Assembly (NCBI RefSeq): GCF_000297095.1
Contig: NZ_AEEA01000039.1
Span: forward strand, 1-28,796
DNA: 28,796 bases
Source: Treponema primitia ZAS-1
GTDB taxonomy: Bacteria; Spirochaetota; Spirochaetia; Treponematales; Breznakiellaceae
Direction: 5' to 3'
Shown here one piece after another: positions 1,100 to 26,254 of this stretch. Every line of letters starts with the position of its first letter. The stretch's first letter is position 1. A program made the translations under genes and the position numbers. Below the pieces are notes generated by a model that did no database searches, was not told the origin of the DNA, and saw nothing but the letters and a program-made list of their open reading frames with translations.

Positions 1100-1109
1100 T
1101 TCATTTTTC

Positions 1110-1138: not shown

Positions 1139-1197
1139 TTCCGTTACACATGGAAAGAACTTCTATGCGCTATTCCATATACCAGGAGAGGGGTTTT

Positions 1198-3908: not shown

Positions 3909-3986
3909 GACCGGATTTGTGGGTCGGGGGTACATGAACATTTACAGCCACGGTGAACGGATTACCGAAGCAGAGGCGGAAACCTT

Positions 3987-4268: not shown

Positions 4269-4282
4269 GAGAGGAGTTTTCT

Positions 4283-4828: not shown

Positions 4829-4830
4829 TC

Positions 4831-6840: not shown

Positions 6841-7638
6841 TTAGAACCCCCCGATACAAGCGGCCCCGATGGCGCCTGCGTAGATTCCCTGGGGTAAAAA
6901 TTGCACCTCAACCTTGAGTACCTGTGAAAGCGCCTTACGGATACCGGAACTTTCCGCAAGCCCACCGGTTAATACCACCGGGGGGCGGAGGCCGACCCTG
7001 GCAGAAAGGCTGCTTATCTTTACTGCCATGGACAGCGCCACCCCTCCTACAATTTCCTCCCGGCTATAACCCTTTGCCAGGAGTCCGATGATCTCCGATT
7101 CAGCAAATACCGCACAGGTGCTGTTTAGTTGAATGATTTTTTCGGCGGCAAGTAAAGTATCCATGAGGTTTATGTCCGCGTTGAACCGTTCCAGGACCAT
7201 CTGTACAAAGCGGCCTGTACCGGCGGCGCATTTGTCGTTCATCTGAAAGGATAGCACCCTGCCGTTCTCCACTGCAATGACCTTGCAGTCCTGGCCGCCT
7301 ATATCGATAACCGTCCTGACCCCCGGCATCAGGTATTCTGCGCCCCGTGCGTGGGCGCTTATTTCGGTGACGGCCTTAGTCTTTTCCGTCGCCATGTCCC
7401 GGCCGTACCCGGTGGCAATAATCGGCATATTGCCAACCATATCATTATCAGCTGTGTTAGGGGCAATGTCGGCGGCGTTACCCCTGAGGTTCGCCAAAAC
7501 ACGGGCGGCGCTTTCCTGCAAATTCCACCCGGTGGGCTGCAGAGAAAAAGCTGCAACCCCATGCCGGTTCAGTAACACTCCCTTGCAGAGTGTGGAGCCG
7601 CAGTCTATGCCGATGACGTATTCAGCTTCCCCATCCAT
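6841..7638 (-). CDS. BcrA/BadF/HgdC-type ATPase (CoA-substrate-specific enzyme activase)
   Basis: ASKHA N-terminus IGIDCGSTLCKGV. Cluster-bridging cysteines sit in DKCAAGTGRF and STCAVFAESE. Its start abuts the stop of the upstream dehydratase-family gene with no gap. Confidence 0.85.
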   Translation of the reverse strand: MDGEAEYVIGIDCGSTLCKGVLLNRHGVAAFSLQPTGWNLQESAARVLANLRGNAADIAPNTADNDMVGNMPIIATGYGRDMATEKTKAVTEISAHARGAEYLMPGVRTVIDIGGQDCKVIAVENGRVLSFQMNDKCAAGTGRFVQMVLERFNADINLMDTLLAAEKIIQLNSTCAVFAESEIIGLLAKGYSREEIVGGVALSMAVKISSLSARVGLRPPVVLTGGLAESSGIRKALSQVLKVEVQFLPQGIYAGAIGAACIGGF

Positions 7639-8793
7639 TTACAGCATCTCAATAAAGGCGGATATACGGGTTTTAAGCTGCTCCGTGTCTCCGGAGGAAT
7701 AATCGGTCTCCAGGCTCATAAAGGGTATGCTGCGGGTCTTAAGAAATTCTCCAATGGTATAGGATTCTATGGCGTAGGTATGGCAGGATTGCAACACCAT
7801 TTCCAGCACCCCGTCGGCCTTGAATTGATCGCAGAGCCGTCCCAGCAGTTCAAGCCGGTTTGGGTTGGGACTCATCACGCTGCATCCTATATTGAGATAG
7901 TAGTCGCAGAGGGCATCGTAGGGGTCGGCGGACTCATCAATCTGCCGATCAAACTGTTTTGCCCCGGTGCAGTTTTCATAGGCCACCACCACAGCCCCGC
8001 TCTCTTCAATGACCCGGGTGAATTTTTCCGTAACTCCCCCTATGGGACAGCCGGTAACAATAATGCGCTTCGCAGCGGCGGGAATTGGATGCCTGCCGTT
8101 TTGGTATTCTTCAGTAATTCTGCTGATGGTCTCTTCCAGTTCCTGTACTTTTTTTTCATGGTCGAATTTGAACTGGGCGCCGAATAGTATCTGAAGCTGC
8201 TGTAAACCAGAGAGGGGGGCGGGGCTCATCACCGATAGTTCATACACTTTTTTTAAAAGAGCGCGTTCCCTGTTCCGTTCCCGTATAGCCTGGTGTAGTT
8301 TTTCTACCGTAATGGTTACGCCGAATTTTTCTTCCACCCTGTTCTTTAAGCGTTTAATTTCTTCCATCCAGATTGCCCGGGAAGCGGGCCTGTCCTGGTT
8401 ATGGGGAAGATCCATCACATGGACATCTTTAATTTTTCCCAAGAGTTCGTACATTTTTGTTTTCCCGTCACAGGTAGTCTCGCCAACCACCAGATCGGAA
8501 AAATACATATAGGGGCATTTATCGGCGGCGGCGAATCCGTAGGAAGCCTTAATGAGGGGGCAGAGGTTGCGGGGGAGGACCTTTTCCGCCTCGCCTATGG
8601 TTTCATCGCTGGTTGAACAAAGACCCACCGGCACAAGACCGACTGCCAAAAAAAGCTCTACCGGCACATAGGTGCAAAAGGTTCCAACCACTCCCTTACC
8701 CTGTTCCTTCAGGTTTTTCATGGCCATAAAACCCTGTTTACGGGCATCAGAAAAGGATTCAAAAATCTCGGGCAGCTCTCTTTGTTCAATCAT
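7639..8793 (-). CDS. 2-hydroxyacyl-CoA dehydratase / BcrC-BadD family protein, single-subunit (double-cubane-cluster-protein-like)
   Basis: 384-aa Cys-rich protein (FCTY, LCSTS, NLCPL, KCPY, TTCDGK, TGCPIGG, SCHTY) paired with a single activase rather than an alpha/beta dehydratase pair. Confidence 0.7.
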   Translation of the reverse strand: MIEQRELPEIFESFSDARKQGFMAMKNLKEQGKGVVGTFCTYVPVELFLAVGLVPVGLCSTSDETIGEAEKVLPRNLCPLIKASYGFAAADKCPYMYFSDLVVGETTCDGKTKMYELLGKIKDVHVMDLPHNQDRPASRAIWMEEIKRLKNRVEEKFGVTITVEKLHQAIRERNRERALLKKVYELSVMSPAPLSGLQQLQILFGAQFKFDHEKKVQELEETISRITEEYQNGRHPIPAAAKRIIVTGCPIGGVTEKFTRVIEESGAVVVAYENCTGAKQFDRQIDESADPYDALCDYYLNIGCSVMSPNPNRLELLGRLCDQFKADGVLEMVLQSCHTYAIESYTIGEFLKTRSIPFMSLETDYSSGDTEQLKTRISAFIEML

Positions 8794-14374: not shown

Positions 14375-15439
14375 TTATCTGAATAGTATCACCTTTCCCG
14401 CCCTCGGCGCAACTTCCCCTATGATTGCGGCGTGTTCATCCCCGGCTTCCCTGATGCGGGCAGTAAGCGTCTCTGCCTCGTCGGGGGGCACGGCTATCAA
14501 AAGTCCTCCGGATGTCTGGGGATCGAATAACAGTTCCTGGGTGGCAAAGGGGAGCGCGCTTACATCGGCGTATTTGCTTCCACGGTTGCGGTTACGCTGG
14601 CCCGCGGCGGTCAGCAGATATTCGTTTGCATAGGTTACTGCCTCCGGGATAAGGGGCAAGGCATCGGGGTACAGTAGTATTGCCGCCTGATCCCCCGCCA
14701 TCTCCAGGGCATGGACAAGCAGCCCGAAACCGGTAACATCCGTACAGGCGCTTACGTTAAAACCCGCCATGCTCTCACAGGCATAGCGGTTGAGCCGCTC
14801 CATGGAGGCTATGGCCTGCCGAACCGCCCCCTCACCGGCCATCTCAACCCGCAGAGCAGCCATCACAATCCCTACGCCCAGGGGTTTGGTCAATATTATT
14901 TTATGCCCAATCTTTGGGGTGTTGTTGCGTATCACCTTTGCTGTCTCGACCATGCCGGTGACGGCCAGCCCATACTTTGGCTCCCTGTCGTATATAGAGT
15001 GTCCACCGCCCAAGACGGCCCCTGCCTCTGCGATTTTCTCCGCACCTCCAGCCAGTATATCTGCGAGGACACTTTTCTCCATGGCCTCGGGAAAACATAC
15101 CAGGTTCAGCGCCACCATGGGTTTGCCGCCCATGGCCCATACATCGCTCAAGGCGTTTGCGGCAGCGATACGCCCAAAGGTACGGGCATCGTCGACCATA
15201 GGGGGGAAAAAGTCCGCAGTAAAGATAAGCGAGTTTTTCTCATCAAGCATATAAACTGCGGCATCATCGGAAGTGTCGTAGCCGACCAGCAGTCGTTTGT
15301 CGCCGCTTGCAGGCAGCCCCGCCAACAGGCGGGCAAGCCCATCGCTTTCTATCTTCGCCCCGCATCCACCGCTTGTGCAGGAGGACAGTAGTCCTTTTGA
15401 CAGCAGGGACTCAGTGTTCTTACCCATCCCTTCCTCCAT
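14375..15439 (-). CDS. selD: Selenide, water dikinase (selenophosphate synthetase), Cys-type
   Basis: N-terminal glycine-rich loop TSGGCGAKI, with Cys rather than Sec at the catalytic position, and a PurM-like body. The start could instead be the ATG at 15427 (MGKNTE). Confidence 0.9.
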   Translation of the reverse strand: MEEGMGKNTESLLSKGLLSSCTSGGCGAKIESDGLARLLAGLPASGDKRLLVGYDTSDDAAVYMLDEKNSLIFTADFFPPMVDDARTFGRIAAANALSDVWAMGGKPMVALNLVCFPEAMEKSVLADILAGGAEKIAEAGAVLGGGHSIYDREPKYGLAVTGMVETAKVIRNNTPKIGHKIILTKPLGVGIVMAALRVEMAGEGAVRQAIASMERLNRYACESMAGFNVSACTDVTGFGLLVHALEMAGDQAAILLYPDALPLIPEAVTYANEYLLTAAGQRNRNRGSKYADVSALPFATQELLFDPQTSGGLLIAVPPDEAETLTARIREAGDEHAAIIGEVAPRAGKVILFR

Positions 15440-15707
15440 CCGCCCCGTTTATACCGATCTTCCTGTATCCATCCCCGGATTTCTCCCAGGCCTCTTTTAT
15501 AGCAAGTCCCCGCTCCGACAGAAACGAGGCGGCCCGTTCCAGATCTTCCGGTACAAACCTGAGGCAAAAACCGCATCCCGTTCGTATGCCCGCAGGCATG
15601 GGCATGACCCGGACATAAAACCCCTGCTCCACCAACGCCTGCTCCGCCATAATGGCCTGGGTGACACTATCGAAACCGATGATTAGTTCTTTGCTGTTAC
15701 TTTCCAT
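15420..15707 (-). CDS. DUF3343-like small protein (putative Se/S carrier)
   Basis: 95 aa counted from MESNSKELIIGFDS, with a conserved-looking GCGFCLRF. The listed ORF extends to 15893, but that extension runs through the tRNA-Sec gene, so I trimmed the start to the ATG at 15705-15707. Confidence 0.65.
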   Translation of the reverse strand: MESNSKELIIGFDSVTQAIMAEQALVEQGFYVRVMPMPAGIRTGCGFCLRFVPEDLERAASFLSERGLAIKEAWEKSGDGYRKIGINGADGGRDG

Positions 15708-15758
15708 GCGAGCTGCTATCGTACGGGGTAATGGGCTGCGCTTTTGACAACAAAAAAA

Positions 15759-15852
15759 TGGCGGAGGCGTGTGAGAATCGAACTCACCAAGGACGTTTCC
15801 ACCCTTTGACGGATTTGAAGTCCGCAGCCGCCACCAGGCGACATTCACCTCC
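15759..15852 (-). tRNA. selC: tRNA-Sec (anticodon UCA)
   Basis: The 94-nt reverse complement is GGAGGTGAATGTCGCCTGGTGGCGGCTGCGGACTTCAAATCCGTCAAAGGGTGGAAACGTCCTTGGTGAGTTCGATTCTCACACGCCTCCGCCA. It has a long acceptor stem, a 6-bp D-stem with 4-nt loop (GTCGCC-TGGT-GGCGGC), anticodon loop CTTCAAA, a long variable arm, T-arm GTGAG-TTCGATT-CTCAC, and an encoded CCA. Confidence 0.9.
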
Positions 15853-15860
15853 ACAGAATA

Positions 15861-15889
15861 ATGATAAGATTGTGAAGCTTTGTTGTCAA
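15861..15889 (-). promoter_or_regulatory. Sigma70-like promoter for selC
   Basis: On the minus strand: TTGACA (15884-15889), 17-nt spacer, TATCAT (15861-15866). The -10 ends 8 nt before the mature tRNA 5' end. Confidence 0.6.
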
Positions 15890-15975
15890 TCACGGCGGTG
15901 GAAACTACGGATCGGAGCTCGGAAACCCTTTTTCGGGATATTAAACCGGGTATATTAATTTTTTTTGGAAAATGC

Positions 15976-17419: not shown

Positions 17420-17448
17420 TTGAGTTTTTCCAGTTCCCATAGTATTCT
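17420..17448 (+). promoter_or_regulatory. Candidate promoter for fdhF(Sec)
   Basis: TTGAGT (17420-17425), 17-nt spacer, TATTCT (17443-17448), 40 nt upstream of the ATG. Confidence 0.4.
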
Positions 17449-17488
17449 GTTAAGTATAAAAGCGTTAAACCTCATAGGAGGAGAAGAA

Positions 17489-19681
17489 ATGGCGGTAAAA
17501 GAAATCCAGACCACCTGTGCGTACTGCGGAGCGGGGTGCCAGCTATTGTTTACGGTAGACCAGGATGTGAACAAGATCCTTGATGTGCATCCTGTTCAGG
17601 GCAGAACCAACGAAGGCACGGCCTGTTTGAAAGGCTGGTACGGGTGGGATTACCTCAATGACCCCCAGATTATCTCTAAAAGGCTCGCCAAGCCCATGAT
17701 TCGCAAGGGCGGTAAAAATAGTCCCCTGGAAGAGGTAGAATGGGACGAAGCCATTGCCTATACGGCGGGCCGGCTCATGGAAATTAAGGAAAAATACGGC
17801 CCCAACGCCATCATGGGCACCGGTTCGGCCCGGGGCTCGGGCAACGAGTCCAACTATATCATGCAGAAATTTATGCGCGCAGCGGTGGGCACCAACAATG
17901 TCGACCACTGCGCGCGGATATGACACGCTCCTTCTGTAGCGGGTCTACAGTATTCACTAGGTTCAGGCGCCATGACCATGGGAGTGCCTGAAATAGAAGA
18001 TGCAGCTCTTTTGTTTGTTTTCGGCTATAACGGCGCTGATTCTCACCCCATAGTCGCTCGCCGCATTGTGCGCGCCAAGGAAAAGGGCGCCAAGATAATC
18101 TGCGTCGATCCCCGGATCATAGAGACCGCCCGTATTGCGGACATGCATCTCCAGCTTAAAGGCGGCTCAAACCTGCTGCTGGTCAACGCTCTGGCCAATG
18201 TTATCTTGGAAGAAGGGCTCTGTGATTATGACTTTATCGAAAAACACGCCAATGGATTCGACGAGTTTAAGGAAATTGTAAAGAAATATACCCCCGAAGG
18301 CGTGGCTGCCCAGACCCAGATCTCCGCCGAGGATATCAGAAAGGCCGCCCGGATGTATGCCGCCAGCGGACGTTCCATGATCCTGTACGGCATGGGGGTC
18401 TGCCAGTTCGGGCAGGCCGTGGACGTGGTCAAGGGTTTGGCCAACCTGGCCATCATGACCGGCAACCTGGGCCGTCCCTCCACGGGCATCGGCCCGGTGC
18501 GGGGCCAGAACAACGTGCAGGGCGCCTGCGATATGGGGGCCTTGCCCAATGTCTATCCGGGCTACCAGAGCGTCACCGTCCCGGCGATACAGGAAAAATT
18601 CGAAAAAGCCTGGGGGGTCAAACTGTCCGATAAGCCTGGCATTACCCTGACCGTGGTGCCCCACCATGTGCTGCACGAAACCGACCCTGCAAAACAGATC
18701 CACGCCTATTACATAATGGGGGAGGACCCGGTCCAATCCGACCCGGATTCGACGGAAGTGCGGGAGTCTCTGGAGAAATGCGACTTCGTGGTTATGCAGG
18801 ACATTTATATGAACAAAACCGGCCAGTACGCCGATGTTCTTCTGCCGGCCACGGGCTGGTGCGAGCATGACTCGGTTTTCTCCTGCTGCGACCGGGGCTT
18901 TCAGAAGGCCCGCAAGGTCATCGAGCCTTCGGGGGATGTGAAGAACGACTGGGAAATCATCAGCCTGATTTCTACGGCCATGGGCTACCCCATGAAGTAT
19001 AACAACACCGTAGAAATCTGGAACGAGCTGATCGAACTCTGCCCCAGTTTCGCCGGCGCCACCGACGAGAAGCTTGAAAGGAACCTCTCCATCCAGTGGC
19101 CCTGCCGGGACAAGGCAGCGAGCGATTTGGGTACGGTCTACCTGCACAGGGGCGGCAAATTCGCCAACGCCGACGGCAAGGCCAACTTTTTCGCCACCGA
19201 ATGGCGGCCGCCTCAGGAAGTGGAAAACAAAGAGTATCCCCTCACCCTGTGTACGGTCCGCGAAGTGGGCCACTATTCGGTGCGCACCATGACCGGTAAC
19301 TGCCGGACCCTCCGCAACCTTGAGGATGAGCCGGGCTGGGTACAGATTTCGGCGAGGGATGCGGAAAAGCTTGGCATAAAACACCAAGAGCTTGTCAGGA
19401 TAAGCTCAAAACGCGGCTCCGTTATTACCCGGGCCAATATTACCTCCCGGGTCAAGAAGGGCGCCGTGTACATGACCTACCAGTGGTGGGTCGGCGCCTG
19501 TAACGAACTGACGAATAGTTCCCTTGACCCCATAAGCAAGACCCCGGAGTACAAGTACTGCGCCTGCAAGGTGGAAAGGCTTCCGGATCAAAAAGCGGCC
19601 TGGGACGCGGTGAACAAGACCTTGGCGGATTTGAGAAACAAGATGTTCATCAGCGTTGAACGGGAGGGTGTCTCGGGGTAA
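17489..19681 (+). CDS. fdhF: Formate dehydrogenase H catalytic subunit, selenocysteine variant (UGA at 17921-17923 decoded as Sec)
   Basis: ORFs 17420-17923 and 17972-19681 share one frame and are separated only by a single TGA. Read through, the sequence is HCARI-U-HAPSVAGLQYSLGSGAMTMGVPEIEDA, colinear with HCARICHAASVAG... of the paralog at 1198. The N-terminus MAVKEIQTTCAYCGAGCQ follows GGAGGAG. Confidence 0.92.
17921..17923 (+). other. In-frame UGA selenocysteine codon of fdhF(Sec)
   Basis: It aligns with the catalytic Cys codon (TGC, 1639-1641) of the paralog. The full sel machinery is encoded within 10 kb. Confidence 0.9.
17934..17950 (+). promoter_or_regulatory. Bacterial SECIS-like hairpin
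   Basis: CTGTAG-CGGGT-CTACAG: 6-bp stem and 5-nt G/U-containing loop, beginning 10 nt after the UGA. This is the usual position for a bacterial SECIS. Confidence 0.7.
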
Positions 19682-19703
19682 GCGGTTTTGTAAAACCAAA
19701 CCA

Positions 19704-19732
19704 TTGACCCGTTCCGGCTCAGTCGGTACGAT
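19704..19732 (+). promoter_or_regulatory. Candidate promoter in front of the MoxR-like gene
   Basis: TTGACC (19704-19709), 17-nt spacer, TACGAT (19727-19732). The -10 ends only 8 nt before the ATG at 19741, implying a leaderless or near-leaderless transcript if it is used. Confidence 0.3.
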
Positions 19733-19740
19733 ATGGGGTA

Positions 19741-21174
19741 ATGAAGGGCCTTAACCGGATCCGTGACCGGATCGAAATAGCCATCGAGATTACCAGGGAC
19801 AGTAAGGTTCCCATCCTTTTGATGGCAAACCCGGGACTGGCCAAATCAACGGTGGTGTACAACTGGGCCGGACGCAACGGCTACCATATTGAAACCCTTA
19901 TCGGCTCCCGGTTTTCCCAGGAGGAGATCCTGGGTTTTCAGGTCAGGGCGGAGGACCGTGAAACCGGGGAGCACTATCTGGAACTTCTGGCCCCCCACTG
20001 GTACCGGAACATCCTGGATCAGGAAAATAACTTTCATGTGCCGTCGGTGCTGTTCCTGGACGAGCTGAGTACCGCCCAGGAAAATGTTCAAGGGGCTCTG
20101 CTGCAGTTGGTCTTTGAGCGGAAAATCGGAAACGGCCGGACCCTGCCCGAATCGACCCTGGTTATCGCCGCGGCAAACTACAAGCAGAATATCCCCTTTC
20201 AGTTCAATATCATGGCCCCCATCCTCAACCGTTTTTGTATCATCAACCTGTCCTACGAAAGCAACGATAGTTTTCTTGACGAGTTTCTCCAGGATGAAGC
20301 GGACCTTGCGAAGGACCCCGTGGTCTTTGCGGAAAAAGAAATTACGCTCTGGCAGAAAAACTACCTCCGGGACGGATTGAAGATGATGTTCAGGACTCTT
20401 TTCCGTTCCTTTGAGGAGGATAACCGGGATATGGATAAGGACCTTATCTACACCATGGACATCAATAATCAGGTCTACAATACCATGTACGATGACGACT
20501 CCCGGTATGTATACAACTTTATTTCCGGCCGTACCCTCTGGTATCTCTACAAGATAAGCCTGTCCTTCCTCCGCAAAGGCCTGACCTTGGAGGCGCACGA
20601 TGCTGCCATACTTAACATGGTCTATGGCCTCATCGGCCTTGGAACCAACACCTTTACTGAAAAACAACGCAAGGCGTATCTAAAGAGCGCAGAAACCCTG
20701 TACCGGCGGCTCTACGATGTCCTATCCTCCCGGAATGACACCGGAACGACCACGGCTGCCGGTGAAGCTCAGCGCGCATCCCTGGACTTCCGGGGCAAGA
20801 GCATAGCGGACGCCGTCAACGAATGGGTTCTCTTTCATGAATCTTCGATGCTCCACGACATCAAGGATCCGAACCTGGAAGCCCTGACTATCCACATCAG
20901 CGCATCCTATGGCCTTAACGCCGAAGACACCGAGCGTCTCCGCCAGAAGATCACCCATAACAAGGCGGATCTCTACACCTTTTCCAACGATATGCAGCGC
21001 CTGGACTACCTCATCGGTATCCTCGAGGAGGAACAGAATCTTTCGGAAAACGCTAAGGATACGCAAGAGAAGAACCGTGAAGGCGATCCCCTTAACCGGC
21101 TCCGCGGAATCCGTGAGGCTTATGCGGAACTTCGTGACGAAGCGGTGAAGCTTATGATGAAGAACACGGGGTAA
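19741..21174 (+). CDS. MoxR/AAA_5-like AAA+ ATPase with a ~290-aa helical C-terminal extension of unknown function
   Basis: P-loop-like LLMANPGLAKST, Walker B VLFLDELS, sensor-1 VIAAAN, and PILNRF (the MoxR-type xLLxRF arginine). I do not recognise the C-terminal half. Confidence 0.7.
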   Translation: MKGLNRIRDRIEIAIEITRDSKVPILLMANPGLAKSTVVYNWAGRNGYHIETLIGSRFSQEEILGFQVRAEDRETGEHYLELLAPHWYRNILDQENNFHVPSVLFLDELSTAQENVQGALLQLVFERKIGNGRTLPESTLVIAAANYKQNIPFQFNIMAPILNRFCIINLSYESNDSFLDEFLQDEADLAKDPVVFAEKEITLWQKNYLRDGLKMMFRTLFRSFEEDNRDMDKDLIYTMDINNQVYNTMYDDDSRYVYNFISGRTLWYLYKISLSFLRKGLTLEAHDAAILNMVYGLIGLGTNTFTEKQRKAYLKSAETLYRRLYDVLSSRNDTGTTTAAGEAQRASLDFRGKSIADAVNEWVLFHESSMLHDIKDPNLEALTIHISASYGLNAEDTERLRQKITHNKADLYTFSNDMQRLDYLIGILEEEQNLSENAKDTQEKNREGDPLNRLRGIREAYAELRDEAVKLMMKNTG

Positions 21175-21185
21175 AGGACTAAGCC

Positions 21186-22649
21186 TTGCCGGAAAATGGA
21201 GATTGGGAGCCTGCCCAATACCGGGTAACAAACAAACTGCTGGAACGGCTTAATATCCGCATCAGTTATATTGACGTCCCTGGGATAAAGGGGGCGCCGC
21301 TAAGTTTTTCCTACCGGGCCATGCGGGGTGAGTACTGTATCTACATTGACCGGAAAGCAGATAGGCCGACTTTTATGGCCCGGGATCTCCACGAGAAAGG
21401 GCATATCCTCTACAACCACTTTAACCGGCCCAGGGCGCACCGCCAGCAGTTTGAAGAATTTTTCCGGCGCAACCTCCACAGTTTTCTTGCGCGCCTTCCT
21501 CCGGAGCGGAACTTAAACTCCAAGCTGGGTACCTATTCTACGTATATCTACAACCGTTTTTCTGACATAGCCCAGGCCATGGAGATAAATACCAAGCTTT
21601 TCAAAGAGGATCGTAAGGTGTTGCAAGTTGCGCGGGAAACTTCGCTGCAAAATACGCCCGGCGGTCCTCTGGAGGGATTCATCTTCCCCCGGGAGACGTG
21701 GCCCGAGGGACTGGACTGGATGAGCTATATGAGCTTCCTCTGCACCGAGCTGAACTTCTTTCTGGACCATATAGGGGACGGGCCGGGCAAAAAAATTAAG
21801 TCGAGCGACGTCAGCGCCTATAACGCCATGCAGGCCGTTGAACGGCGTATACAGGATATCCAGGAAACCCGAAAGACCGCTGCGGATGCGGACAGCAACG
21901 CCGCCTACGAACCGGAAGTCATCAGGCACGGCAGGACCGATAATTATACCGATACCAAGACGGTCAACACCGTTACGGAATTAAACGATGTTAAGGACCT
22001 GGTACGAATACTGCGGGAACGGAGCCTCCTCCTTAAGCGGAACCGGCTCCACACGGACATTCTCTATAATATTAACCGTAATCGGTTTGGGGATATCCTC
22101 ATCCCCCGGCGTTACCGCATTGAAAACTACAACCTGAACAACCTGTGTATACTGCTGGATGTGTCCGGCAGCGTTCCTCCGGGCTTTGTTAAGCGGGTTA
22201 TCCAAACCATTATGCGTGCCGAAGGAGCCTTTTACAAAGGCGCCTTTAACAAACACCTGAGCCGCCTGGTCTGCTGGTCCGACAGCCTTTGTTCCGATAC
22301 CTCCTTGGCGGACATTGGCGCCATAACCTTAGGCGGGGGTACCGTGTTGGGTGCAGGTATCGAATACTGTAAACAGTACCTCAACGAGCGGTCCAGTTTC
22401 TTTATCATCAGCGATTTCCAGGATGACCTTAACGACTGGATCAGCGCCGCCCGAGACCTGGGCTGCCAAAAAACCGCCGTGGGATACGGCCGATTTGGCC
22501 GGGATACCTCGTTTGAACGGTGGTTTTCCGCCATAGGTTCCAATGCGGACTACCGTAAGAACCCCGTGGACATACGACGTTTTGTGTCGGTGTTTAACAC
22601 GGTGCTGCTGCGGGATGATGTGGTACAGCGGGAGGGCTTGACCGGGTAA
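21186..22649 (+). CDS. Putative zinc metallopeptidase (HExxH) fused to a C-terminal von Willebrand factor A domain
   Basis: The N-domain carries DLHEKGHILYNH. The C-domain has MIDAS-type residues ILLDVSGSV (DxSxS), LGGGTV and FIISDFQDD. A TTG start lies 11 nt after the upstream stop, preceded by AGGA. The architecture resembles Pfam DUF2201_N + DUF2201 from memory. Confidence 0.7.
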   Translation: MPENGDWEPAQYRVTNKLLERLNIRISYIDVPGIKGAPLSFSYRAMRGEYCIYIDRKADRPTFMARDLHEKGHILYNHFNRPRAHRQQFEEFFRRNLHSFLARLPPERNLNSKLGTYSTYIYNRFSDIAQAMEINTKLFKEDRKVLQVARETSLQNTPGGPLEGFIFPRETWPEGLDWMSYMSFLCTELNFFLDHIGDGPGKKIKSSDVSAYNAMQAVERRIQDIQETRKTAADADSNAAYEPEVIRHGRTDNYTDTKTVNTVTELNDVKDLVRILRERSLLLKRNRLHTDILYNINRNRFGDILIPRRYRIENYNLNNLCILLDVSGSVPPGFVKRVIQTIMRAEGAFYKGAFNKHLSRLVCWSDSLCSDTSLADIGAITLGGGTVLGAGIEYCKQYLNERSSFFIISDFQDDLNDWISAARDLGCQKTAVGYGRFGRDTSFERWFSAIGSNADYRKNPVDIRRFVSVFNTVLLRDDVVQREGLTG

Positions 22650-22661
22650 GGTAAATTGTTT

Positions 22662-22723
22662 ATACTTTAGTGTATTACGATACAGTGTAATATGATACAC
22701 TATATCATATTACACTAAAGTAT
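22662..22723. repeat. 62-bp imperfect palindrome carrying four AGTGTA/TACACT half-sites
   Basis: Symmetric about 22692/22693. Outer arms are ATACTTTAGTGTA (22662-22674) / TACACTAAAGTAT (22711-22723). Inner arms are AGTGTAATATGAT (22684-22696) / ATCATATTACACT (22704-22716). About 26 of 31 positions pair overall. It lies 13 nt upstream of the ATPase ATG. Confidence 0.9.
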
Positions 22724-22736
22724 CCGGAGGCGTAGG

Positions 22737-24146
22737 ATGTTTGTGGGAAGAAAACGGGAACTGGAAGCTCTGGAAAAGCAATATGCCGGGAACGATTTTG
22801 AATTTGCGGTCATATACGGACGCCGGAGGGTGGGAAAAACATCCCTCATAGTTGAATTTATTAAGGATAAGCCGGCGGTATTTTTTACCGGCCGGGAAAC
22901 CAACCTGGCGGAAAATCTGGTGCTGCTCAGTGGGAGTATTCAGGCCTCCCGGTTTGGGGTAGAAAAGGCGCCGGTTTATCAGTCTATCGACGATGCCCTG
23001 GACCGGGTCTTCAGCGCCGCTGATGGCAAGCGGCTTATCTTTGTGATTGACGAGTACCCCTACCTGGCAGGGGCTTGGCGGGGAATATCTTCGACCCTCC
23101 AGGAAAAGATCGATCACCGTTCAAAAAAATGCAGGCTTTTTTTAATCCTCTGCGGATCATCCCTTTCCTTTATGGAAAACCAGGTGCTGGGGTACCAAAG
23201 TCCTCTGTACGGAAGACGAACCGCTCAGTATAAGATTGAGCCCTTTGATTTTTTTGAGGCCGGAGAATTTTTTCCCAACCTAAACAGCCAGGACAGCGCC
23301 GCTATCTATGCCATGGCCGGGGGTATTCCCTCATACCTGAACCGGTTTATCGGCTCTGCACCCCTCAAAGAAAAGGTGATCGCCAACTTCCTTAGTCCCC
23401 AGGGTTTTCTTTTTGAGGAGCCGGAAAATCTCCTGAAACAGGAACTGCGGGATCCGGCGAACTACAACGCCCTTATTCGGGAGATTGCCCGTGGAGCAAC
23501 CCGGGTTTCGGAGATCGCCTCTAAAACAGGTCTGGAAACCGGCGTAGCAAGCCACTACCTTGATACCCTCATACAGCTGGGAATTGTTGAACGGGAAATG
23601 CCCGTCACCGAGGAGGTTCAGGGAAAAACCCGCGGCAGGAAATCGCTCTACACGGTTAAGGATAATCTTTTCTGTTTTTGGTACCGATTTATCCCCGGCA
23701 TTATTGATATTATTCAGCATAACAACACGGAGAAAGCCTGGGACTTTATTGCCGAAGGGTTCAGCGCCTACATGGGCAGGGTATTTGAAGAAATTTGCCG
23801 ACAGTATCTCTGGCGGGAAAACACTGCAGGCAGACTACCCTTCTTTTTTCAGCAGGAGGGCCGCTGGTGGGGACATGATCCATTGCAGAAAATGGAATCC
23901 AAAATCGACATCCTGGCAATTCAGGGCAAGACCCATGCGCTGTTCTGCGAATGCAAGTGGAGAAACGAAGGAACCGGCAGGGACGTCCTTGAAGCCCTGT
24001 TACAAAAAGCGGATCATTTCCGGTTTGAACAGAAATACTACATCCTTTTTTCAAAGAGCCCCTTTACCGTGGGATGCAAAAAACTAGCCGCAGAGAGGGG
24101 GGGTGTCAGGCTGCTTAGCTTTAGGGAGATGAACGTAAACCGCTGA
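22737..24146 (+). CDS. P-loop ATPase (archaeal-ATPase/DUF234 family) with internal winged-helix and C-terminal PD-(D/E)xK-like module
   Basis: Walker A IYGRRRVGKTS, Walker B LIFVIDEYPYL, and wHTH-like REIARGATRVSEIASKTGLETGVASHYLDTLIQLGIVE. The C-terminal IDILAI...LFCECKW fits a D...ExK nuclease core. GGAGG lies 6 nt before the ATG. Confidence 0.75.
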   Translation: MFVGRKRELEALEKQYAGNDFEFAVIYGRRRVGKTSLIVEFIKDKPAVFFTGRETNLAENLVLLSGSIQASRFGVEKAPVYQSIDDALDRVFSAADGKRLIFVIDEYPYLAGAWRGISSTLQEKIDHRSKKCRLFLILCGSSLSFMENQVLGYQSPLYGRRTAQYKIEPFDFFEAGEFFPNLNSQDSAAIYAMAGGIPSYLNRFIGSAPLKEKVIANFLSPQGFLFEEPENLLKQELRDPANYNALIREIARGATRVSEIASKTGLETGVASHYLDTLIQLGIVEREMPVTEEVQGKTRGRKSLYTVKDNLFCFWYRFIPGIIDIIQHNNTEKAWDFIAEGFSAYMGRVFEEICRQYLWRENTAGRLPFFFQQEGRWWGHDPLQKMESKIDILAIQGKTHALFCECKWRNEGTGRDVLEALLQKADHFRFEQKYYILFSKSPFTVGCKKLAAERGGVRLLSFREMNVNR

Positions 24147-24160
24147 CAGTATTATTGTCC

Positions 24161-24787
24161 CTACAATTTCTCAAAATCCGCAGCGCCATGTTTGCATATG
24201 GGGCACACAAAATCCGGCGGGAGTACATCCCCTTCGTACACATATCCGCAAATTTTGCATATATACCCTTTCTTTTTGGAAGATTCTACCGGAGGCTTGG
24301 GTTTAATGTGATCAAAATAATACTGGTATGTTACGGACTGCACGGCGTTCAACACCGCCGCTTCGGTGACATCGGCAATAACCAAAGTGTGGGTATCGTA
24401 GTCGCTTGTGCTGATAATTTTACCGGAAATATAGCTATTGGCATAGCGGGGTTCATACAGTATGCCGTTAGGGCTGCGCTTTTTTTCCTGCGCACCGGCA
24501 AACTTATCAACGGTCCGGCCGCTCTGAAAGCCAAACTGCTGAAAAACAGAAAATGGTGTTTCAACACCTAAAACAGAAACATTAAAAATACCGGTTTTAA
24601 GTATCATGTCGTGGGTAAAATTGTTTTTGTTGACCGTAAGGGATATGCGTTTGGGTATATCCGTCATCTGGGAAACGGTGTTGATAATACAGCCGTTATC
24701 CTTATCGCCGTCCTTTGCCGTTAGAATGAAAAGTCCATAACTCAGCTTAAAAAATGCAGCATTATCAATACCGGTTAAATCAGACAT
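24161..24787 (-). CDS. Flavin reductase-like (FMN-binding split-barrel) protein fused to a C-terminal rubredoxin
   Basis: The C-terminus YICKICGYVYEGD...FVCPICKHG contains the two CxxC rubredoxin knuckles. The N-terminal ~160 aa resemble the flavin reductase domain (GLFILTAKDGDKDNGCIINTV). Confidence 0.8.
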   Translation of the reverse strand: MSDLTGIDNAAFFKLSYGLFILTAKDGDKDNGCIINTVSQMTDIPKRISLTVNKNNFTHDMILKTGIFNVSVLGVETPFSVFQQFGFQSGRTVDKFAGAQEKKRSPNGILYEPRYANSYISGKIISTSDYDTHTLVIADVTEAAVLNAVQSVTYQYYFDHIKPKPPVESSKKKGYICKICGYVYEGDVLPPDFVCPICKHGAADFEKL

Positions 24788-24796
24788 ACCTGCTCC

Positions 24797-24813
24797 TTTG
24801 TAAAATCTACAAA
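24797..24813. promoter_or_regulatory. Candidate operator palindrome TTTGTA-N5-TACAAA
   Basis: Perfect 6-bp arms located 10 nt upstream of the flavin reductase-rubredoxin start, in a divergent intergenic region. Confidence 0.35.
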
Positions 24814-24876
24814 ATTTCTAATATCTATTATAGTATAGCATAAAAAAATGAGTTGGCTAGTTTTTTTTGATAAATT

Positions 24877-24890
24877 TTTGTAAAATTTAC
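24877..24890. promoter_or_regulatory. Second, imperfect copy of the TTTGTAAAAT-TAC motif
   Basis: TTTGTAAAATTTAC shares TTTGTAAAAT and TAC with the site at 24797, 80 bp away. Confidence 0.3.
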
Positions 24891-24951
24891 CTGAGGGTAT
24901 CCAAATTTGACTTTATTCACCGCTTCTCCGTACATTTAATGACGTAGCGCT

Positions 24952-26211
24952 ATGTATAAAAATTGGAAAAGAAATACCGTCCTGTTTTTAACCGGACAGG
25001 CCATCTCCCTTTTCGGTTCAGCCCTGGTCCATTACGCAATCGTCTGGTATATCACCCTCCATACCCGGTCAGGGGCAATGATGACCGTTGCGATCATCTG
25101 CGGCAGCTTACCGACTTTTTTTATATCCCCCTTCGGCGGGGTGTGGGCGGATCGGTATAACCGTAAACTCCTCATCAACATTGCCGACGGGATCATCGCG
25201 TTAAGTACCCTTGCTATGGCGTTGTTTTTTATTCTGCACGGCAAAATCGATCTTATCTGGCTTTTGTTTCTGAACCTCGGTATCCGGGCCCTGGGAACCG
25301 GTGTGCAGACACCGGCGGTAAACGCCCTCATCCCCCAGCTGGTACCGGATGAACACCTGACCCGGGTGAACGGTATCAATAGTTCCGTCAATTCCCTGTC
25401 TTCCCTGCTGGCCCCCATGCTCAGCGGGGCACTCCTCAGCTTTTCACGGATAGAGTATATCTTTTTTATTGATGTGGCCACCGCCGTCATCGGTATCAAT
25501 ATTGTGTTTATTTTTGTCCATATTCCCGGTGAAACACAATCGCTGTGGAAAAAAGCAGCCGGTACAAATTCCCGGTCATATTTTGAGGATCTTAAAAAAG
25601 GCTGCCGTTATATGTTGGATCATGGGTTTATCAAAAGGATGTTCATCTTTTCTGTTTTCTTTTTCCTGCTGATTACCCCGGGTGTTTTCTTAACGCCCCT
25701 TCAGATAGCCCGGAAATTCGGCGGCGAAGTATGGCGGCTTTCGGTAATGGAAATACTGTTTTCGGCGGGTATGATCCTGGGCGGCCTTTTAATTAGTGTT
25801 TGGGGCGGTTTTAAAAACCGTGTCCGGACCATGGCATTTGCCTGTTTCCTTTTTGGCTGCGGTGACATCTGTCTGGGACTCGTCCCCCATTACGGAATCT
25901 ACATCATGGTGATGGCCTTCTCCGGTATGATCGTACCCTTTTTCAACACCCCCTTCACCGTTTTATTACAGGAAAAAGTGGAAAGTCAATTTATGGGCCG
26001 GGTGTTCAGTTTCCAAAATATGATTTCCAGCATCATGATGCCCCTGGGGATGATCGTCTTTGGCCCCCTGGGTGACGTGATCCCCATCAGCCGGATTCTG
26101 GTTTTCTGCGGTTCAGGAACGATTATCCTTGGCGGCTTCTTTATAGGTAATCGGGTCTTGCGGGAAGGGGGGGAGCAGTTTGAGCTGGAGCGTATTGAAA
26201 ATGCGGATTGA
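24952..26211 (+). CDS. MFS transporter (efflux-type, 12 TM)
   Basis: 419 aa and hydrophobic. The GGVWADRYNRK loop between TM2 and TM3 is typical of MFS proteins. Confidence 0.8.
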   Translation: MYKNWKRNTVLFLTGQAISLFGSALVHYAIVWYITLHTRSGAMMTVAIICGSLPTFFISPFGGVWADRYNRKLLINIADGIIALSTLAMALFFILHGKIDLIWLLFLNLGIRALGTGVQTPAVNALIPQLVPDEHLTRVNGINSSVNSLSSLLAPMLSGALLSFSRIEYIFFIDVATAVIGINIVFIFVHIPGETQSLWKKAAGTNSRSYFEDLKKGCRYMLDHGFIKRMFIFSVFFFLLITPGVFLTPLQIARKFGGEVWRLSVMEILFSAGMILGGLLISVWGGFKNRVRTMAFACFLFGCGDICLGLVPHYGIYIMVMAFSGMIVPFFNTPFTVLLQEKVESQFMGRVFSFQNMISSIMMPLGMIVFGPLGDVIPISRILVFCGSGTIILGGFFIGNRVLREGGEQFELERIENAD

Positions 26212-26254
26212 CAGTACCGTGTATTAGGGTTTAAATTGATAAAATAATAACGAT

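What the first reader, a model, noticed from the sequence alone, without database searches (positions are those of the whole stretch)
19741..24146. 4.4-kb block with defence-island-like domain content embedded among core acetogenesis genes
**Seen:** Three co-oriented genes sit between fdhF(Sec) and a redox-stress gene. Together they encode two different P-loop NTPases, a metallopeptidase-like domain, a vWA domain, a winged helix and a PD-(D/E)xK-like module. None of them has an obvious metabolic role. A 62-bp palindrome separates gene 2 from gene 3.

**Inference:** An NTPase sensor/switch combined with protease and nuclease effectors is the usual grammar of anti-phage or conflict systems, so the trio might operate as one unit.

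**Caveats:** The 87-nt gap and the palindrome could equally mean that gene 3 is independent. I see no integrase, transposase, tRNA-flank or direct repeats that would mark a mobile island.
Basis: inference. Interest (0 to 1): 0.7.

Follow-up and report, generated by a model that had tools for sequence, protein, structure and literature searches.

The report
Phage-type chaperone pair plus separate nuclease-ATPase
The three genes are real, but they are two unrelated units sitting side by side: a phage-type ATPase/protease-adaptor pair that this termite-gut spirochaete lineage has kept next to its formate and acetogenesis genes, and a stand-alone, probably self-regulated ATPase-nuclease gene that is only a candidate anti-phage gene. 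They are not one three-gene defence system.

Summary
Three co-oriented genes lie at 19741-24146, with the stated domains, an 11-nt and an 87-nt gap, and a 62-bp palindrome.

- No relative of gene 3 occurs in 1.79 Mb around 121 loci that carry relatives of gene 1 or gene 2.
- No relative of gene 1 or gene 2 occurs in 649 kb around 82 loci that carry relatives of gene 3.

Genes 1 and 2 are a conserved pair: a MoxR-class AAA+ ATPase followed by a protein with an HExxH zincin-like domain and a vWA/MIDAS domain.
- The same pair is adjacent in many uncultivated phage genomes, mostly 125-400 kb.
- The architecture was already described in jumbo phages (PMC7824862).
- In the Treponema primitia clade the pair is chromosomal and inherited with its flanks (dS similar to neighbouring genes).
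- It is under purifying selection (dN/dS about 0.1) and lies beside formate or Wood-Ljungdahl genes in all eight genomes compared.

Gene 3 is a stand-alone ATPase_2-wHTH-DUF234 (PD-(D/E)xK) gene.
- It matches the untested PADLOC candidate PDC-S27.
- It has its own promoter-like site.
- The palindrome belongs to it. Similar operator-like repeats precede its relatives in unrelated contexts.
- It is strain-variable: strain ZAS-10 keeps only a 36-nt 3' remnant.

Both units are known kinds. Interest is modest.

The parts
19704..19732 (+). Promoter-like element upstream of g1 (TTGACC, 17-nt spacer, TACGAT). The second hexamer ends 8 nt before the ATG.
   Evidence: Consensus scan. A similar TTGAnn-17-TAnCAT element is aligned upstream of g1 in ZAS-2, ZAS-10 and Ncb351_bin77, although the upstream gene differs (fdhF-Sec, FNT, MobA). 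Function is inferred, not shown.
19741..21174 (+). g1: MoxR-class AAA+ ATPase, 477 aa. The AAA+ core covers about residues 20-190 (19798-20310). It is followed by a roughly 290-residue helical C-terminal region of unknown function.
   Evidence: Pfam AAA_5 at 25.6 bits against a cut-off of 22, plus weak bpMoxR. phrog_1297 ATPase 3e-23. AlphaFold model pLDDT 83.8. Foldseek matches to MCM, MoxR 2r44 and NorQ 9qhd/9qh4 at E about 1e-7. Family invariants: P31 G32 K35 (Walker A reads NPGLAKST), D107 E108 (Walker B), N146, R164.
21186..22649 (+). g2: zincin-like (HExxH) N-terminal domain plus C-terminal vWA/MIDAS domain, 487 aa, TTG start. HEKGHILYNH lies at residues 69-78 (21390-21419). The vWA domain covers about residues 300-487 (22083-22649). 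MIDAS DVSGS lies at residues 325-329 (22158-22172).
   Evidence: Weak VWA_CoxE hit in the window protein and in 46 of 55 relatives; Peptidase_M78 in 7 of 55; DUF2201 in 5 of 55. Invariant D325 S327 S329 T386 D410 H78 E133. Model pLDDT 81.6. vWA fold hits include integrin I-domains and NorD. Whole-length fold hits to phage 'Metallopeptidase' and 'VWA-like' proteins. g1 lies directly upstream in every relative of at least 50% identity that has flanking sequence.
22638..22666 (+). Promoter-like site for g3 (TTGACC, 17-nt spacer, TATACT, 10 of 12 matches). The -35 hexamer overlaps the last codons of g2.
   Evidence: Best-scoring site in the scan of 19400-25000. The same layout (TTGACA-like hexamer, TATAAT-like hexamer, repeats, GGAGG, start codon) is seen upstream of most g3 relatives.
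22662..22723 (.). The 62-bp palindrome, read here as an operator-like element of g3. It is built from three 15-nt units AGTGTAWTAYGATAC: 22669-22683 (+), 22684-22698 (+), 22702-22716 (-).
   Evidence: Inverted and direct repeats. The unit occurs 3 times in the window, only here, and 0 of 100 shuffles reach 3. Near-identical units precede the 88% and 72% g3 relatives in other genomic contexts. 31 of 58 non-redundant upstream regions in the family exceed the 95th percentile of shuffles for repeat length. No Rfam family matches it.
22726..22730 (+). GGAGG ribosome-binding site of g3, 6 nt before the ATG.
   Evidence: Read directly from the sequence.
22737..24146 (+). g3: stand-alone ATPase_2 (residues 2-203, 22740-23345), winged helix-turn-helix (about residues 246-292, 23472-23612) and DUF234 PD-(D/E)xK module (residues 315-463, 23679-24125). 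It matches the PADLOC candidate PDC-S27.
   Evidence: Pfam. PADLOC PDLC04984 3.3e-51 over residues 2-429. More than 8000 homologues at E < 1e-10. Invariant G28, G33 K34 T35, D105 E106, D391, C406 K407; nearly invariant E405. DUF234 is classed as PD-(D/E)xK in PMC3424549.
24106..24141 (+). The last 36 nt of the g3 coding sequence. Strain ZAS-10 retains this segment directly after the g2 stop codon, which marks a deletion of about 1.45 kb there.
   Evidence: Alignment of the window g2/g3 and g3/flavin-reductase junctions with the ZAS-10 g2/flavin-reductase spacer. Coordinates read.

Best explanation
The block holds two independent units.

Unit A (g1 + g2, 19741-22649) is a two-gene MoxR-type machine of a kind otherwise found mainly in large phages.
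- g1 would form an AAA+ ring.
- g2 would dock on that ring and hold a client protein through its vWA/MIDAS site.
- The N-terminal HExxH zincin-like domain of g2 would process the client.
- In short, this is ATP-driven remodelling coupled to site-specific proteolysis of one client.
- The T. primitia lineage keeps the pair as a chromosomal, selected gene pair with its own promoter-like element. The client is not identified.

Unit B (22638-24146) is a single-gene cassette: promoter, operator-like palindrome, and g3 (ATPase_2-wHTH-DUF234).
- g3 most likely binds its own operator through the winged helix and so represses itself.
- It would use ATP-dependent switching to license its PD-(D/E)xK nuclease on DNA.
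- This fits a stand-alone candidate defence or DNA-surveillance gene (PDC-S27).

Shown: gene structure, domain and fold assignments, co-occurrence patterns, synteny, purifying selection, and conservation of the upstream repeat architecture.

Inferred: ring formation, docking, proteolysis, autoregulation, nuclease activity, and any anti-phage role.
For: Independence of the two units:
- No g3-family gene occurs in 1.79 Mb around 121 g1/g2 loci.
- No g1/g2-family gene occurs in 649 kb around 82 g3 loci.
- ZAS-2 has fdhF-g1-g2-RACo with no g3.
- ZAS-10 has g1-g2 followed by a 36-nt remnant of g3.

Unit A:
- g1 lies directly upstream of g2 in all relatives of at least 50% identity that have flanking sequence.
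- 73 of 83 viral loci hold both genes. After clustering at 70% identity, 14 of 22 viral clusters hold both, and in 12 they are adjacent.
- Viral g2-like proteins keep HExGHxxxxH and DVSGS.
- Window and viral proteins hit the same PHROGs, 1297 and 1314.
- Folds: MoxR/NorQ/MCM class for g1 and vWA for g2. Phage 'metallopeptidase/VWA-like' proteins match g2 over the whole length.
- The architecture and a chaperone-cochaperone reading are published for group 2.2 jumbo phages (PMC7824862).
- dN/dS is 0.10-0.13 for g1 and 0.07-0.12 for g2, against 0.06-0.15 for RACo, with similar dS.

Unit B:
- PADLOC and Pfam hits.
- Catalytic and Walker residues are invariant.
- The promoter-plus-repeat architecture recurs upstream of relatives in unrelated contexts.
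Against: - No experiment bears on any activity.
- The first and second His of the HExxH motif are replaced (R, F, A) in several bacterial relatives. In one roughly 48% identity clade g2 lies without an adjacent g1. Proteolysis and obligate pairing are therefore not universal in the family.
- Walker A of g1 is non-canonical (NPGLAKST).
- The window g2 protein itself reaches no Pfam gathering threshold.
- For g3, operator binding by its own wHTH is inferred only from position and conservation. PDC-S27 is an untested candidate.
- Physical adjacency of a candidate defence gene to a phage-type pair could still reflect loose clustering of the defence-island kind.
Confidence: 0.7

Rival explanations
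1. All three genes form one conflict or anti-phage system, with NTPase switches controlling a protease and a nuclease effector.
For: The three genes are co-oriented and closely spaced. The domain 'grammar' resembles conflict systems. g3 hits the PADLOC candidate PDC-S27.
Against: There is no co-occurrence in either direction. The closest strains lack g3. g3 has its own promoter-like site and operator, which travel with it. g1 and g2 have no PADLOC hit.
Confidence: 0.03
2. g1-g2 is a dedicated maturation or assembly factor, analogous to CoxD/CoxE or NorQ/NorD. Its client would be a neighbouring metalloenzyme of formate or Wood-Ljungdahl metabolism: FDH/HDCR, CODH/ACS, or the corrinoid protein system.
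For: - In all eight T. primitia-clade genomes compared (at least 82% identity), the pair sits beside formate or WL genes, although the upstream neighbour differs.
- Upstream neighbours: fdhF-Sec in the window and ZAS-2; MobA after an fdhF-HycB-HydA cluster in L022 and L006; FNT after FTHFS in ZAS-10; a PFL region in L005/L012.
- RACo lies 46 bp to 3.6 kb downstream in the five genomes where it was found (window, ZAS-2, ZAS-10, L005, L012).
- The pair is on the same strand as the WL genes.
- dN/dS is about 0.1.
- Weak VWA_CoxE similarity.
- From general knowledge: bacterial MoxR-vWA pairs are usually encoded beside their client (NorQD, CbbQO, CoxDE). The systems are listed in PMC7159879.
Against: - The linkage disappears at 75% identity or below: next to ATP synthase in SP9, and in unrelated contexts in the roughly 55% clade.
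- L022 has no WL genes within 10 kb downstream.
- The synteny may therefore only reflect shared ancestry.
- The nearest relatives outside spirochaetes are phage genes.
- The pair carries its own conserved promoter-like element.
- To my knowledge, WL clusters of other acetogens have no MoxR-vWA pair.
Confidence: 0.17
3. g1-g2 is a stand-alone two-gene conflict module captured from phages. It might, for example, bind and cleave an invading phage's proteins (exclusion or defence), and it sits in a gene-flux hot spot.
For: - The pair has phage homologues, including a Mu-like prophage and viral contigs of up to 329 kb from samples in the same numeric accession series as the JGI samples (unnamed in the tool outputs) that hold most close g1/g2 relatives; the nearest named relatives are Treponema primitia and Termitinemataceae MAGs.
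- Genomic contexts vary at deeper divergence. In one locus an XPB-like helicase, and in another a UvrA-like protein and Xre-type HTH genes, lie nearby.
- The segment between g2 and RACo differs between strains, and in this window it holds a candidate defence gene.
Against: - No hit to any PADLOC model.
- The position is stable, inheritance follows the flanks, and selection is like that on core genes in the T. primitia clade.
- No toxin-like effector is present beyond the zincin-like domain.
- The published proposal for the phage pair is virion assembly, not conflict.
Confidence: 0.1
4. g1-g2 is an inert remnant of a decayed prophage that merely hitch-hikes next to the WL cluster.
For: The family is phage-type. 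No function is known.
Against: Both genes are intact in all eight T. primitia-clade genomes compared (at least seven distinct assemblies). dN/dS is 0.07-0.13 at dS up to about 1.0, equal to neighbouring core genes. No other phage genes lie in the window.
Confidence: 0.03

Closest known systems
MoxR AAA+ ATPase plus (N-terminal metallopeptidase)-vWA chaperone-cochaperone pair of group 2.2 jumbo phages (Iyer et al. 2021, Viruses 13:63, PMC7824862). The related MoxR-vWA system of Acidianus two-tailed virus is needed for tail assembly.
   Same: - Same gene order and domain architecture: MoxR-class ATPase, then an HExxH zincin domain fused to a vWA/MIDAS domain.
- Clear homologues of both genes lie adjacent in many IMG/VR phage contigs.
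- Cultured phages show a MoxR-like ATPase followed by a 'metallopeptidase' or vWA gene, with remote vWA similarity to g2.
- ATV ORF892 appears among the fold hits.
   Different: - Here the pair is chromosomal in a free-living spirochaete lineage, with no phage genes around it.
- It is inherited with its flanks (similar dS) and under purifying selection.
- A virion-assembly role cannot apply unless an unlinked prophage is served.
- Sequence identity to the nearest viral pair is only about 35%, or 25-37% for g2.
Bacterial MoxR-vWA maturation pairs: CoxD/CoxE, NorQ/NorD, CbbQ/CbbO, RavA/ViaA.
   Same: An AAA+ ring of the same structural class (NorQ and MoxR 2r44 among the fold hits). A vWA partner with an intact MIDAS site (NorD among the fold hits). 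Weak VWA_CoxE profile hits. Encoded beside metalloenzyme genes in the T. primitia clade.
   Different: - g2 has an extra N-terminal zincin-like domain.
- g1 has a long helical C-terminal extension.
- No profile hit reaches a curated threshold.
- Linkage to the putative client genes is limited to one shallow clade.
PDC-S27 (PADLOC phage-defence candidate), i.e. the ATPase_2 + DUF234 'ATP-binding protein' family. DUF234 belongs to the PD-(D/E)xK superfamily.
   Same: Full-length match to the PDC-S27 model (3.3e-51). Pfam ATPase_2 and DUF234 are above threshold. Walker and D...ExK residues are conserved. It is a single-gene unit.
   Different: Nothing structural differs. The family has no experimentally shown function. 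The lineage-specific operator-like repeats seen upstream of family members are not something I found described in the papers I read.
vWA-MoxR ternary conflict systems (Kaur et al. 2020, eLife, PMC7159879).
   Same: A MoxR-vWA core. Rare metallopeptidase effectors fused to the vWA domain are mentioned there. g1 has a weak bpMoxR hit.
   Different: No third component (VMAP, FtsH or beta-propeller) is present. The bpMoxR hit is below threshold (20.4 against 27 bits). g3 is unrelated to those third components and does not co-occur with the pair.

Membership tests
MoxR-class AAA+ ATPase (g1) | AAA+ core with Walker A and Walker B motifs, sensor 1 and an arginine finger. | tested here: met
   AAA_5 is above its gathering score (25.6 against 22). 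Invariant K35, D107 E108, N146 and R164. Walker A is atypical (NPGLAKST, with A in place of the second G).
MoxR-class AAA+ ATPase (g1) | Fold of the helix-2-insert clade (MoxR, NorQ, MCM, chelatase). | tested here: met
   Foldseek: MCM at 2e-8, MoxR-like 2r44 at 2.6e-7 (TM-score 0.51 on the target), NorQ 9qhd/9qh8/9qh4 at about 3e-7.
MoxR-class AAA+ ATPase (g1) | Encoded next to a vWA/MIDAS partner. | tested here: met
   g2 starts 11 nt downstream. The adjacency is conserved in bacterial and viral relatives.
Phage-type metallopeptidase-vWA cochaperone (g2; DUF2201-like, PMC7824862) | C-terminal vWA fold with a MIDAS site (DxSxS...T...D). | tested here: met
   Invariant D325 S327 S329 T386 D410. 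vWA fold hits.
Phage-type metallopeptidase-vWA cochaperone (g2; DUF2201-like, PMC7824862) | N-terminal zincin domain with HExxH. | tested here: inconclusive
   HEKGHILYNH is present in the window protein, and HExGHxxxxH is present in 13 of the 14 representative viral relatives inspected. H69 and H73 are not invariant in bacterial relatives. Only 7 of 55 relatives give weak Peptidase_M78 hits. The N-terminal domain alone could not be fold-searched. Whole-length BFVD hits to proteins named 'Metallopeptidase' support the assignment. Catalysis is untested.
Phage-type metallopeptidase-vWA cochaperone (g2; DUF2201-like, PMC7824862) | Match to Pfam DUF2201 / DUF2201_N at the curated threshold. | tested here: not met
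   The window protein has no such hit at E <= 0.1. DUF2201 matches weakly in 5 of 55 relatives, best E 0.0055.
CoxD/CoxE-like metalloenzyme maturation pair | VWA_CoxE profile match at the gathering score. | tested here: not met
   17.8 bits against a cut-off of 26.4. 46 of 55 relatives match only weakly.
CoxD/CoxE-like metalloenzyme maturation pair | Conserved linkage to the client's structural genes across lineages. | tested here: inconclusive
   Linked to formate or WL genes in the T. primitia clade. Not linked in relatives of 75% identity or less.
PDC-S27 / ATPase_2-DUF234 family (g3) | Full-length match to the family models. | tested here: met
   PDLC04984 3.3e-51 (residues 2-429), PDLC04985 2.8e-25. 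ATPase_2 at 85.3 bits and DUF234 at 86.9 bits, both above their cut-offs.
PDC-S27 / ATPase_2-DUF234 family (g3) | Intact P-loop and PD-(D/E)xK catalytic residues. | tested here: met
   G28..G33 K34 T35, D105 E106, D391 and K407 are invariant, and E405 is nearly invariant, in 26 sequences. DUF234 is listed in the PD-(D/E)xK superfamily (PMC3424549).
PDC-S27 / ATPase_2-DUF234 family (g3) | Protection against phage. | not testable with these tools
   The literature calls the PDCs untested candidates.
   0 of 121 g1/g2 loci (1.79 Mb) hold a g3 relative. 0 of 82 g3 loci (649 kb) hold a g1 or g2 relative.
   ZAS-2 and ZAS-10 keep g1-g2 but lack g3. ZAS-10 shows a deletion scar confined to g3.
vWA-MoxR ternary conflict systems (PMC7159879) | A third conserved component (VMAP, FtsH or beta-propeller) and bpMoxR-type ATPase. 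| tested here: not met
   No such gene lies in the block. bpMoxR scores 20.4 bits against a cut-off of 27.

The most novel reading that the evidence does not exclude
A MoxR/zincin-vWA chaperone pair of phage type has been taken over by acetogenic termite-gut treponemes. It would act as a dedicated assembly or processing factor for a formate or Wood-Ljungdahl metalloenzyme (FDH/HDCR or CODH/ACS). That would explain why the pair stays beside these genes through at least four different rearrangements and evolves like a core gene. A smaller second point: ATPase_2-DUF234 (PDC-S27) genes may in general be autoregulated through lineage-specific operators that co-vary with their winged helix.
Probability: 0.17. 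Interest if true: 0.65.

Novelty: new member of a known kind. Interest (0 to 1): 0.3.

Why it matters
- The result removes a false lead: this is not a new three-gene defence system inside the acetogenesis locus.
- It defines two clean units that can each be tested.
- It shows that a chaperone pair so far described in jumbo phages also exists as a selected chromosomal gene pair in termite-gut spirochaetes, placed next to the genes that make these bacteria acetogens. If its client were an FDH or Wood-Ljungdahl enzyme, this would be a new maturation factor for that pathway.
- The operator-like repeats found upstream of many DUF234 ATPase genes give a concrete handle (DNA binding, autoregulation) on a very common candidate defence family (PDC-S27) that has no tested function.

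Tried and rejected
- Exact-sequence look-up of g1 found nothing on record.
- PDB sequence searches gave nothing useful for g1 or for the g2 profile, and only weak Walker-type ATPase hits for g3.
- tblastn of g2 against 50,697 deposited phage genomes found nothing at 1e-3. The link to phages came only from profile searches of IMG/VR loci.
- hhalign of the g2 profile against the genes next to the MoxR-like ATPase in Vibrio phage phiKT1024, and against the 'homing endonuclease' of PA5oct, showed no similarity. Only the vWA part matched in the Alishewanella and Aeromonas phages.
- Searches for TREPR_3072/3073 in the literature, and in the supplements of the T. primitia transcriptome paper, gave nothing. 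The main text of that paper does not mention the genes downstream of fdhF-Sec.
- Rfam found no RNA family at the palindrome, and no terminator-like site was predicted there. I rejected the reading of the palindrome as a g2 terminator for three reasons: it is A+T-rich, it has no T-run, and it travels with g3.
- I first read g3 as an insertion in this strain. The 36-nt remnant in ZAS-10 shows that g3 was deleted there instead.
- A mobile-island reading was not pursued further. G+C content is not distinct, the only tRNA in the window is tRNA-Sec about 4 kb upstream of the block, and no integrase or transposase family appeared among the neighbouring genes that were scanned against Pfam. A search for direct repeats flanking the block was not run.

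Full report
**1. What is there**

The window comes from a close relative of Treponema primitia. The g2 protein is 95% identical to that of strain ZAS-10 and 83% identical to TREPR_3072 of ZAS-2.

The gene order in the window is as follows:
- formate/nitrite transporter
- fdhF(Cys) followed by two HycB-like ferredoxins, an [FeFe] hydrogenase and MobA
- a BcrAD/HGD-D pair
- selA and selB
- a cysteine desulfurase-like gene, TusA, selD and a Se/S carrier gene
- tRNA-Sec
- a membrane protein
- fdhF(Sec)
- g1, g2, g3
- flavin reductase-rubredoxin on the minus strand
- an MFS transporter
- RACo

**2. Domain content**

g1:
- It passes the Pfam AAA_5 threshold.
- Its model (pLDDT 83.8) matches MCM, the MoxR-like protein 2r44 and NorQ.
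- Walker B, sensor 1 and an arginine are invariant in 56 relatives. Walker A reads NPGLAKST.
- About 290 C-terminal residues are helical and have no assignment.

g2:
- It has HEKGHILYNH at residues 69-78.
- It has an invariant MIDAS set: D325, S327, S329, T386 and D410.
- Its model (pLDDT 81.6) has a C-terminal vWA fold. Hits include integrin I-domains, vWF A domains and NorD.
- Over its whole length the model resembles phage proteins named 'Metallopeptidase' or 'VWA-like domain protein'.
- Profile hits are weak: VWA_CoxE in 46 of 55 relatives, Peptidase_M78 in 7 and DUF2201 in 5.

g3:
- It is a textbook ATPase_2 + winged helix + DUF234 protein.
- The P-loop, the DE pair and D391 with K407 are invariant, and E405 is nearly invariant (D391...E405-x-K407).
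- DUF234 is listed in the PD-(D/E)xK superfamily (PMC3424549).

**3. Is the trio one unit? No.**

From the g2 side I collected 33 bacterial loci and 88 viral or phage loci, 1.79 Mb in all. None holds a g3-family gene.

From the g3 side I collected the two closest relatives (88% and 72% identity) and 80 metagenome loci, 649 kb in all. None holds a g1 or g2 relative.

Close strains separate the genes:
- ZAS-2 has fdhF(Sec)-g1-g2, then RACo after 46 bp.
- ZAS-10 has FTHFS-FNT-g1-g2, then flavin reductase, MFS and RACo.
- In ZAS-10 the spacer after g2 still carries the last 36 nt of the g3 coding sequence (window 24106-24141).
- g3 was therefore present in the common ancestor of these two strains and was later deleted, on its own, in ZAS-10.

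PADLOC models hit only g3 (PDC-S27, 3.3e-51). They do not hit g1 or g2.

**4. The g1-g2 pair**

g1 lies directly upstream of g2 in every relative of at least 50% identity that has flanking sequence.

The family is nearly confined to JGI metagenome proteins and to relatives named Treponema primitia, Breznakiellaceae and Termitinemataceae, i.e. termite-gut treponemes, with one large exception, which is phages:
- g1 matches phrog_1297 at 3e-23 and g2 matches phrog_1314.
- Distant g2 relatives sit in a Mu-like prophage and in a 174-kb phage-like contig next to an AAA_5 gene.
- IMG/VR holds 168 stretches related to g1.
- 73 of the 83 viral loci fetched, mostly genomes of 125-400 kb, carry a g2-like gene.
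- After clustering at 70% identity there are 22 viral clusters. Fourteen carry both genes, and in 12 the two genes are adjacent on one strand.
- In 13 of the 14 representative viral g2-like proteins inspected, HExGHxxxxH is intact; DVSGS or DISGS is present in all 14.
- They hit the same two PHROGs as the window proteins.

This architecture is already in the literature. Iyer et al. 2021 describe a MoxR AAA+ / vWA chaperone-cochaperone pair in group 2.2 jumbo phages, with an N-terminal metallopeptidase on the vWA protein. They propose a role in virion assembly with peptidolytic processing, by analogy with the MoxR-vWA system needed for tail assembly in Acidianus two-tailed virus (PMC7824862).

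Cultured phages show the same layout:
- Alishewanella phage has an ATPase gene followed by a gene annotated 'metallopeptidase'.
- Aeromonas phage has a MoxR ATPase gene followed by a vWA-like hypothetical gene.
- Only the vWA part of these neighbours is detectably similar to g2.

**5. The pair in the host lineage**

The T. primitia-clade copies are not prophage debris:
- No phage genes lie nearby.
- Both genes are intact in all eight genomes compared (at least seven distinct assemblies).
- dN/dS is 0.10-0.13 for g1 and 0.07-0.12 for g2. RACo gives 0.06-0.15 and has similar dS.

A promoter-like element (TTGAnn, 17-nt spacer, TAnCAT) ends 8 nt before the g1 start codon. It is conserved whether the upstream gene is fdhF(Sec), FNT or MobA. 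This suggests an autonomous transcription unit.

The upstream neighbour differs between genomes but is always formate-related:
- fdhF-Sec in the window and ZAS-2
- MobA at the end of an fdhF-HycB-HydA cluster in L022 and L006
- FNT after FTHFS in ZAS-10
- a PFL region in L005 and L012

RACo lies 46 bp to 3.6 kb downstream in five of the genomes. It is not found downstream in L022.

This pattern fits the general rule that MoxR-vWA pairs are encoded beside their client. It is also what shared ancestry alone would give. At 75% identity or below the linkage is gone:
- The pair lies next to ATP synthase in SP9.
- It lies between a LysR gene and a LUD-domain gene in another locus.
- An ABC-F ATPase or an XPB-like helicase lies nearby in others.

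In a clade at about 48% identity, g2 lies without g1 and has lost the first histidine of the HExxH motif.

I therefore treat 'maturation factor for FDH/WL enzymes' as a live but minority reading (about 0.17).

**6. g3 and the palindrome**

g3 belongs to a very large family, with more than 8000 hits at E < 1e-10. It corresponds to PADLOC candidate PDC-S27, one of 145 untested candidates derived by 'guilt by embedding'.

The palindrome is built from three 15-nt units, AGTGTAWTAYGATAC: two direct and one inverted. These units occur nowhere else in the window, and 0 of 100 shuffles reach three matches.

The palindrome sits between the best promoter-like site of the region (TTGACC, 17-nt spacer, TATACT, 22638-22666) and a GGAGG ribosome-binding site.

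Almost the same units precede the 88% and 72% relatives in quite different genomic contexts.

Across 58 non-redundant relatives, the 100 nt upstream of the start hold direct or inverted repeats beyond the 95th percentile of shuffles in 31 cases, where about 3 would be expected. The repeat sequence changes from lineage to lineage. Many repeats share a TTAGTAA / TTACTAA-like core.

The palindrome therefore belongs to g3. The simplest reading is an operator for its own winged helix. This is an inference, and no binding data exist.

**7. Verdict**

What remains is two units:
- (a) a new, host-fixed member of a phage-type MoxR / metallopeptidase-vWA pair, whose client is unknown;
- (b) an ordinary, strain-variable member of the DUF234 ATPase-nuclease family with a probable autoregulatory operator.

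Both are known kinds. The placement of (a) inside the formate/Wood-Ljungdahl region of acetogenic termite spirochaetes is the only part that might repay experiments.

Noticed in passing
Window 22638-22736; L034 5840-5935; L035 7925-8000; L036-L115 upstream of each match: Genes of the ATPase_2-DUF234 (PDC-S27) family are commonly preceded by a sigma-70-like promoter followed by lineage-specific 12-16-nt direct or inverted repeats, and then the ribosome-binding site. Many repeats have a TTAGTAA / TTACTAA-like core. 31 of 58 non-redundant upstream regions exceed the 95th percentile of shuffles. This suggests family-wide autoregulation through the winged helix.
   Followed up: partly
L002 (T. primitia ZAS-10) about 4229-4292, compared with window 24106-24141: ZAS-10 keeps the last 36 nt of the g3 coding sequence directly after the g2 stop codon. 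This is a clean deletion scar of about 1.45 kb that removed the promoter, the operator and 97% of g3.
   Followed up: yes
Window 22650-26254, compared with L001, L002, L026, L022: The segment between g2 and RACo differs in every strain compared: nothing in ZAS-2; flavin reductase + MFS in ZAS-10; g3 + flavin reductase + MFS here; BOF + ECF sigma factor + two unknown genes in MS499-40/44; MatE and ABC genes in MS499-42. It is a local hot spot of gene gain and loss next to the Wood-Ljungdahl cluster.
   Followed up: partly
Window 19704-19740; L001, L002, L006 upstream of g1: A promoter-like element is conserved immediately upstream of g1 whatever the upstream gene. Its second hexamer ends 8 nt before the ATG, so the g1 mRNA might be leaderless or have a very short leader.
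   Followed up: partly
Window 15759-15852 (- strand): A tRNA-Sec gene (anticodon TCA; Rfam 77.8 bits) lies inside the mechanical ORF 15420-15893. The real Se/S-carrier gene there must be shorter, as it is in ZAS-2 (98 aa).
   Followed up: partly
Window 208-6799 and 17420-19681: The window carries both formate dehydrogenase paralogues. fdhF(Cys) (1129-3393) lies in an HDCR-like cluster with two HycB-like ferredoxins, an [FeFe] hydrogenase and MobA. fdhF(Sec) has an in-frame TGA at 17921-17923. The complete selenocysteine machinery (selA, selB, selD, tRNA-Sec) lies between them.
   Followed up: partly
Window 6841-8793 (- strand): A BcrAD/BadFG-type activator ATPase and an HGD-D (2-hydroxyacyl-CoA dehydratase D-component-like) gene sit between the HDCR-like cluster and selA. 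Their role here is unclear.
   Followed up: no
L011, L013-L021, L030: In a clade of g2 relatives at about 48% identity, no adjacent g1 is found within the available flanks, and HExxH is replaced by RExxH or RExxR. g1 relatives at 50-53% identity are named 'Spirochaetaceae bacterium' and 'Treponema sp.' MAGs, the same source names as this g2 clade; whether they come from the same genomes was not checked. The pair may be unlinked, and the zincin site lost, in that clade.
   Followed up: partly
L116-L124 (IMG/VR contigs from samples 3300006226, 3300010162, 3300010167, 3300010049): The closest viral copies of the pair (g1 35-36%, g2 25-37% identity) lie on viral contigs of 54-329 kb. Their sample numbers fall in the same numeric accession series as the JGI samples that hold most g1/g2 relatives; no tool output names those samples, and that they are termite-gut samples is my guess. 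One 386-kb viral contig carries two g1 copies (L126, L130).
   Followed up: partly
L035 4912-12907: The 72% relative of g3 lies between a 996-aa SMC_N/AAA_15/AAA_23 ATPase gene and an 1150-aa UvrD-type helicase gene. This is a defence-island-like setting, and it fits the candidate status of the family.
   Followed up: no
L031 11555-12930: In the Mu-like prophage the gene order is reversed (g2-like, then g1-like). The g1-like gene appears split into a 316-aa AAA part and a 125-aa piece that matches the g1 C-terminal region.
   Followed up: no
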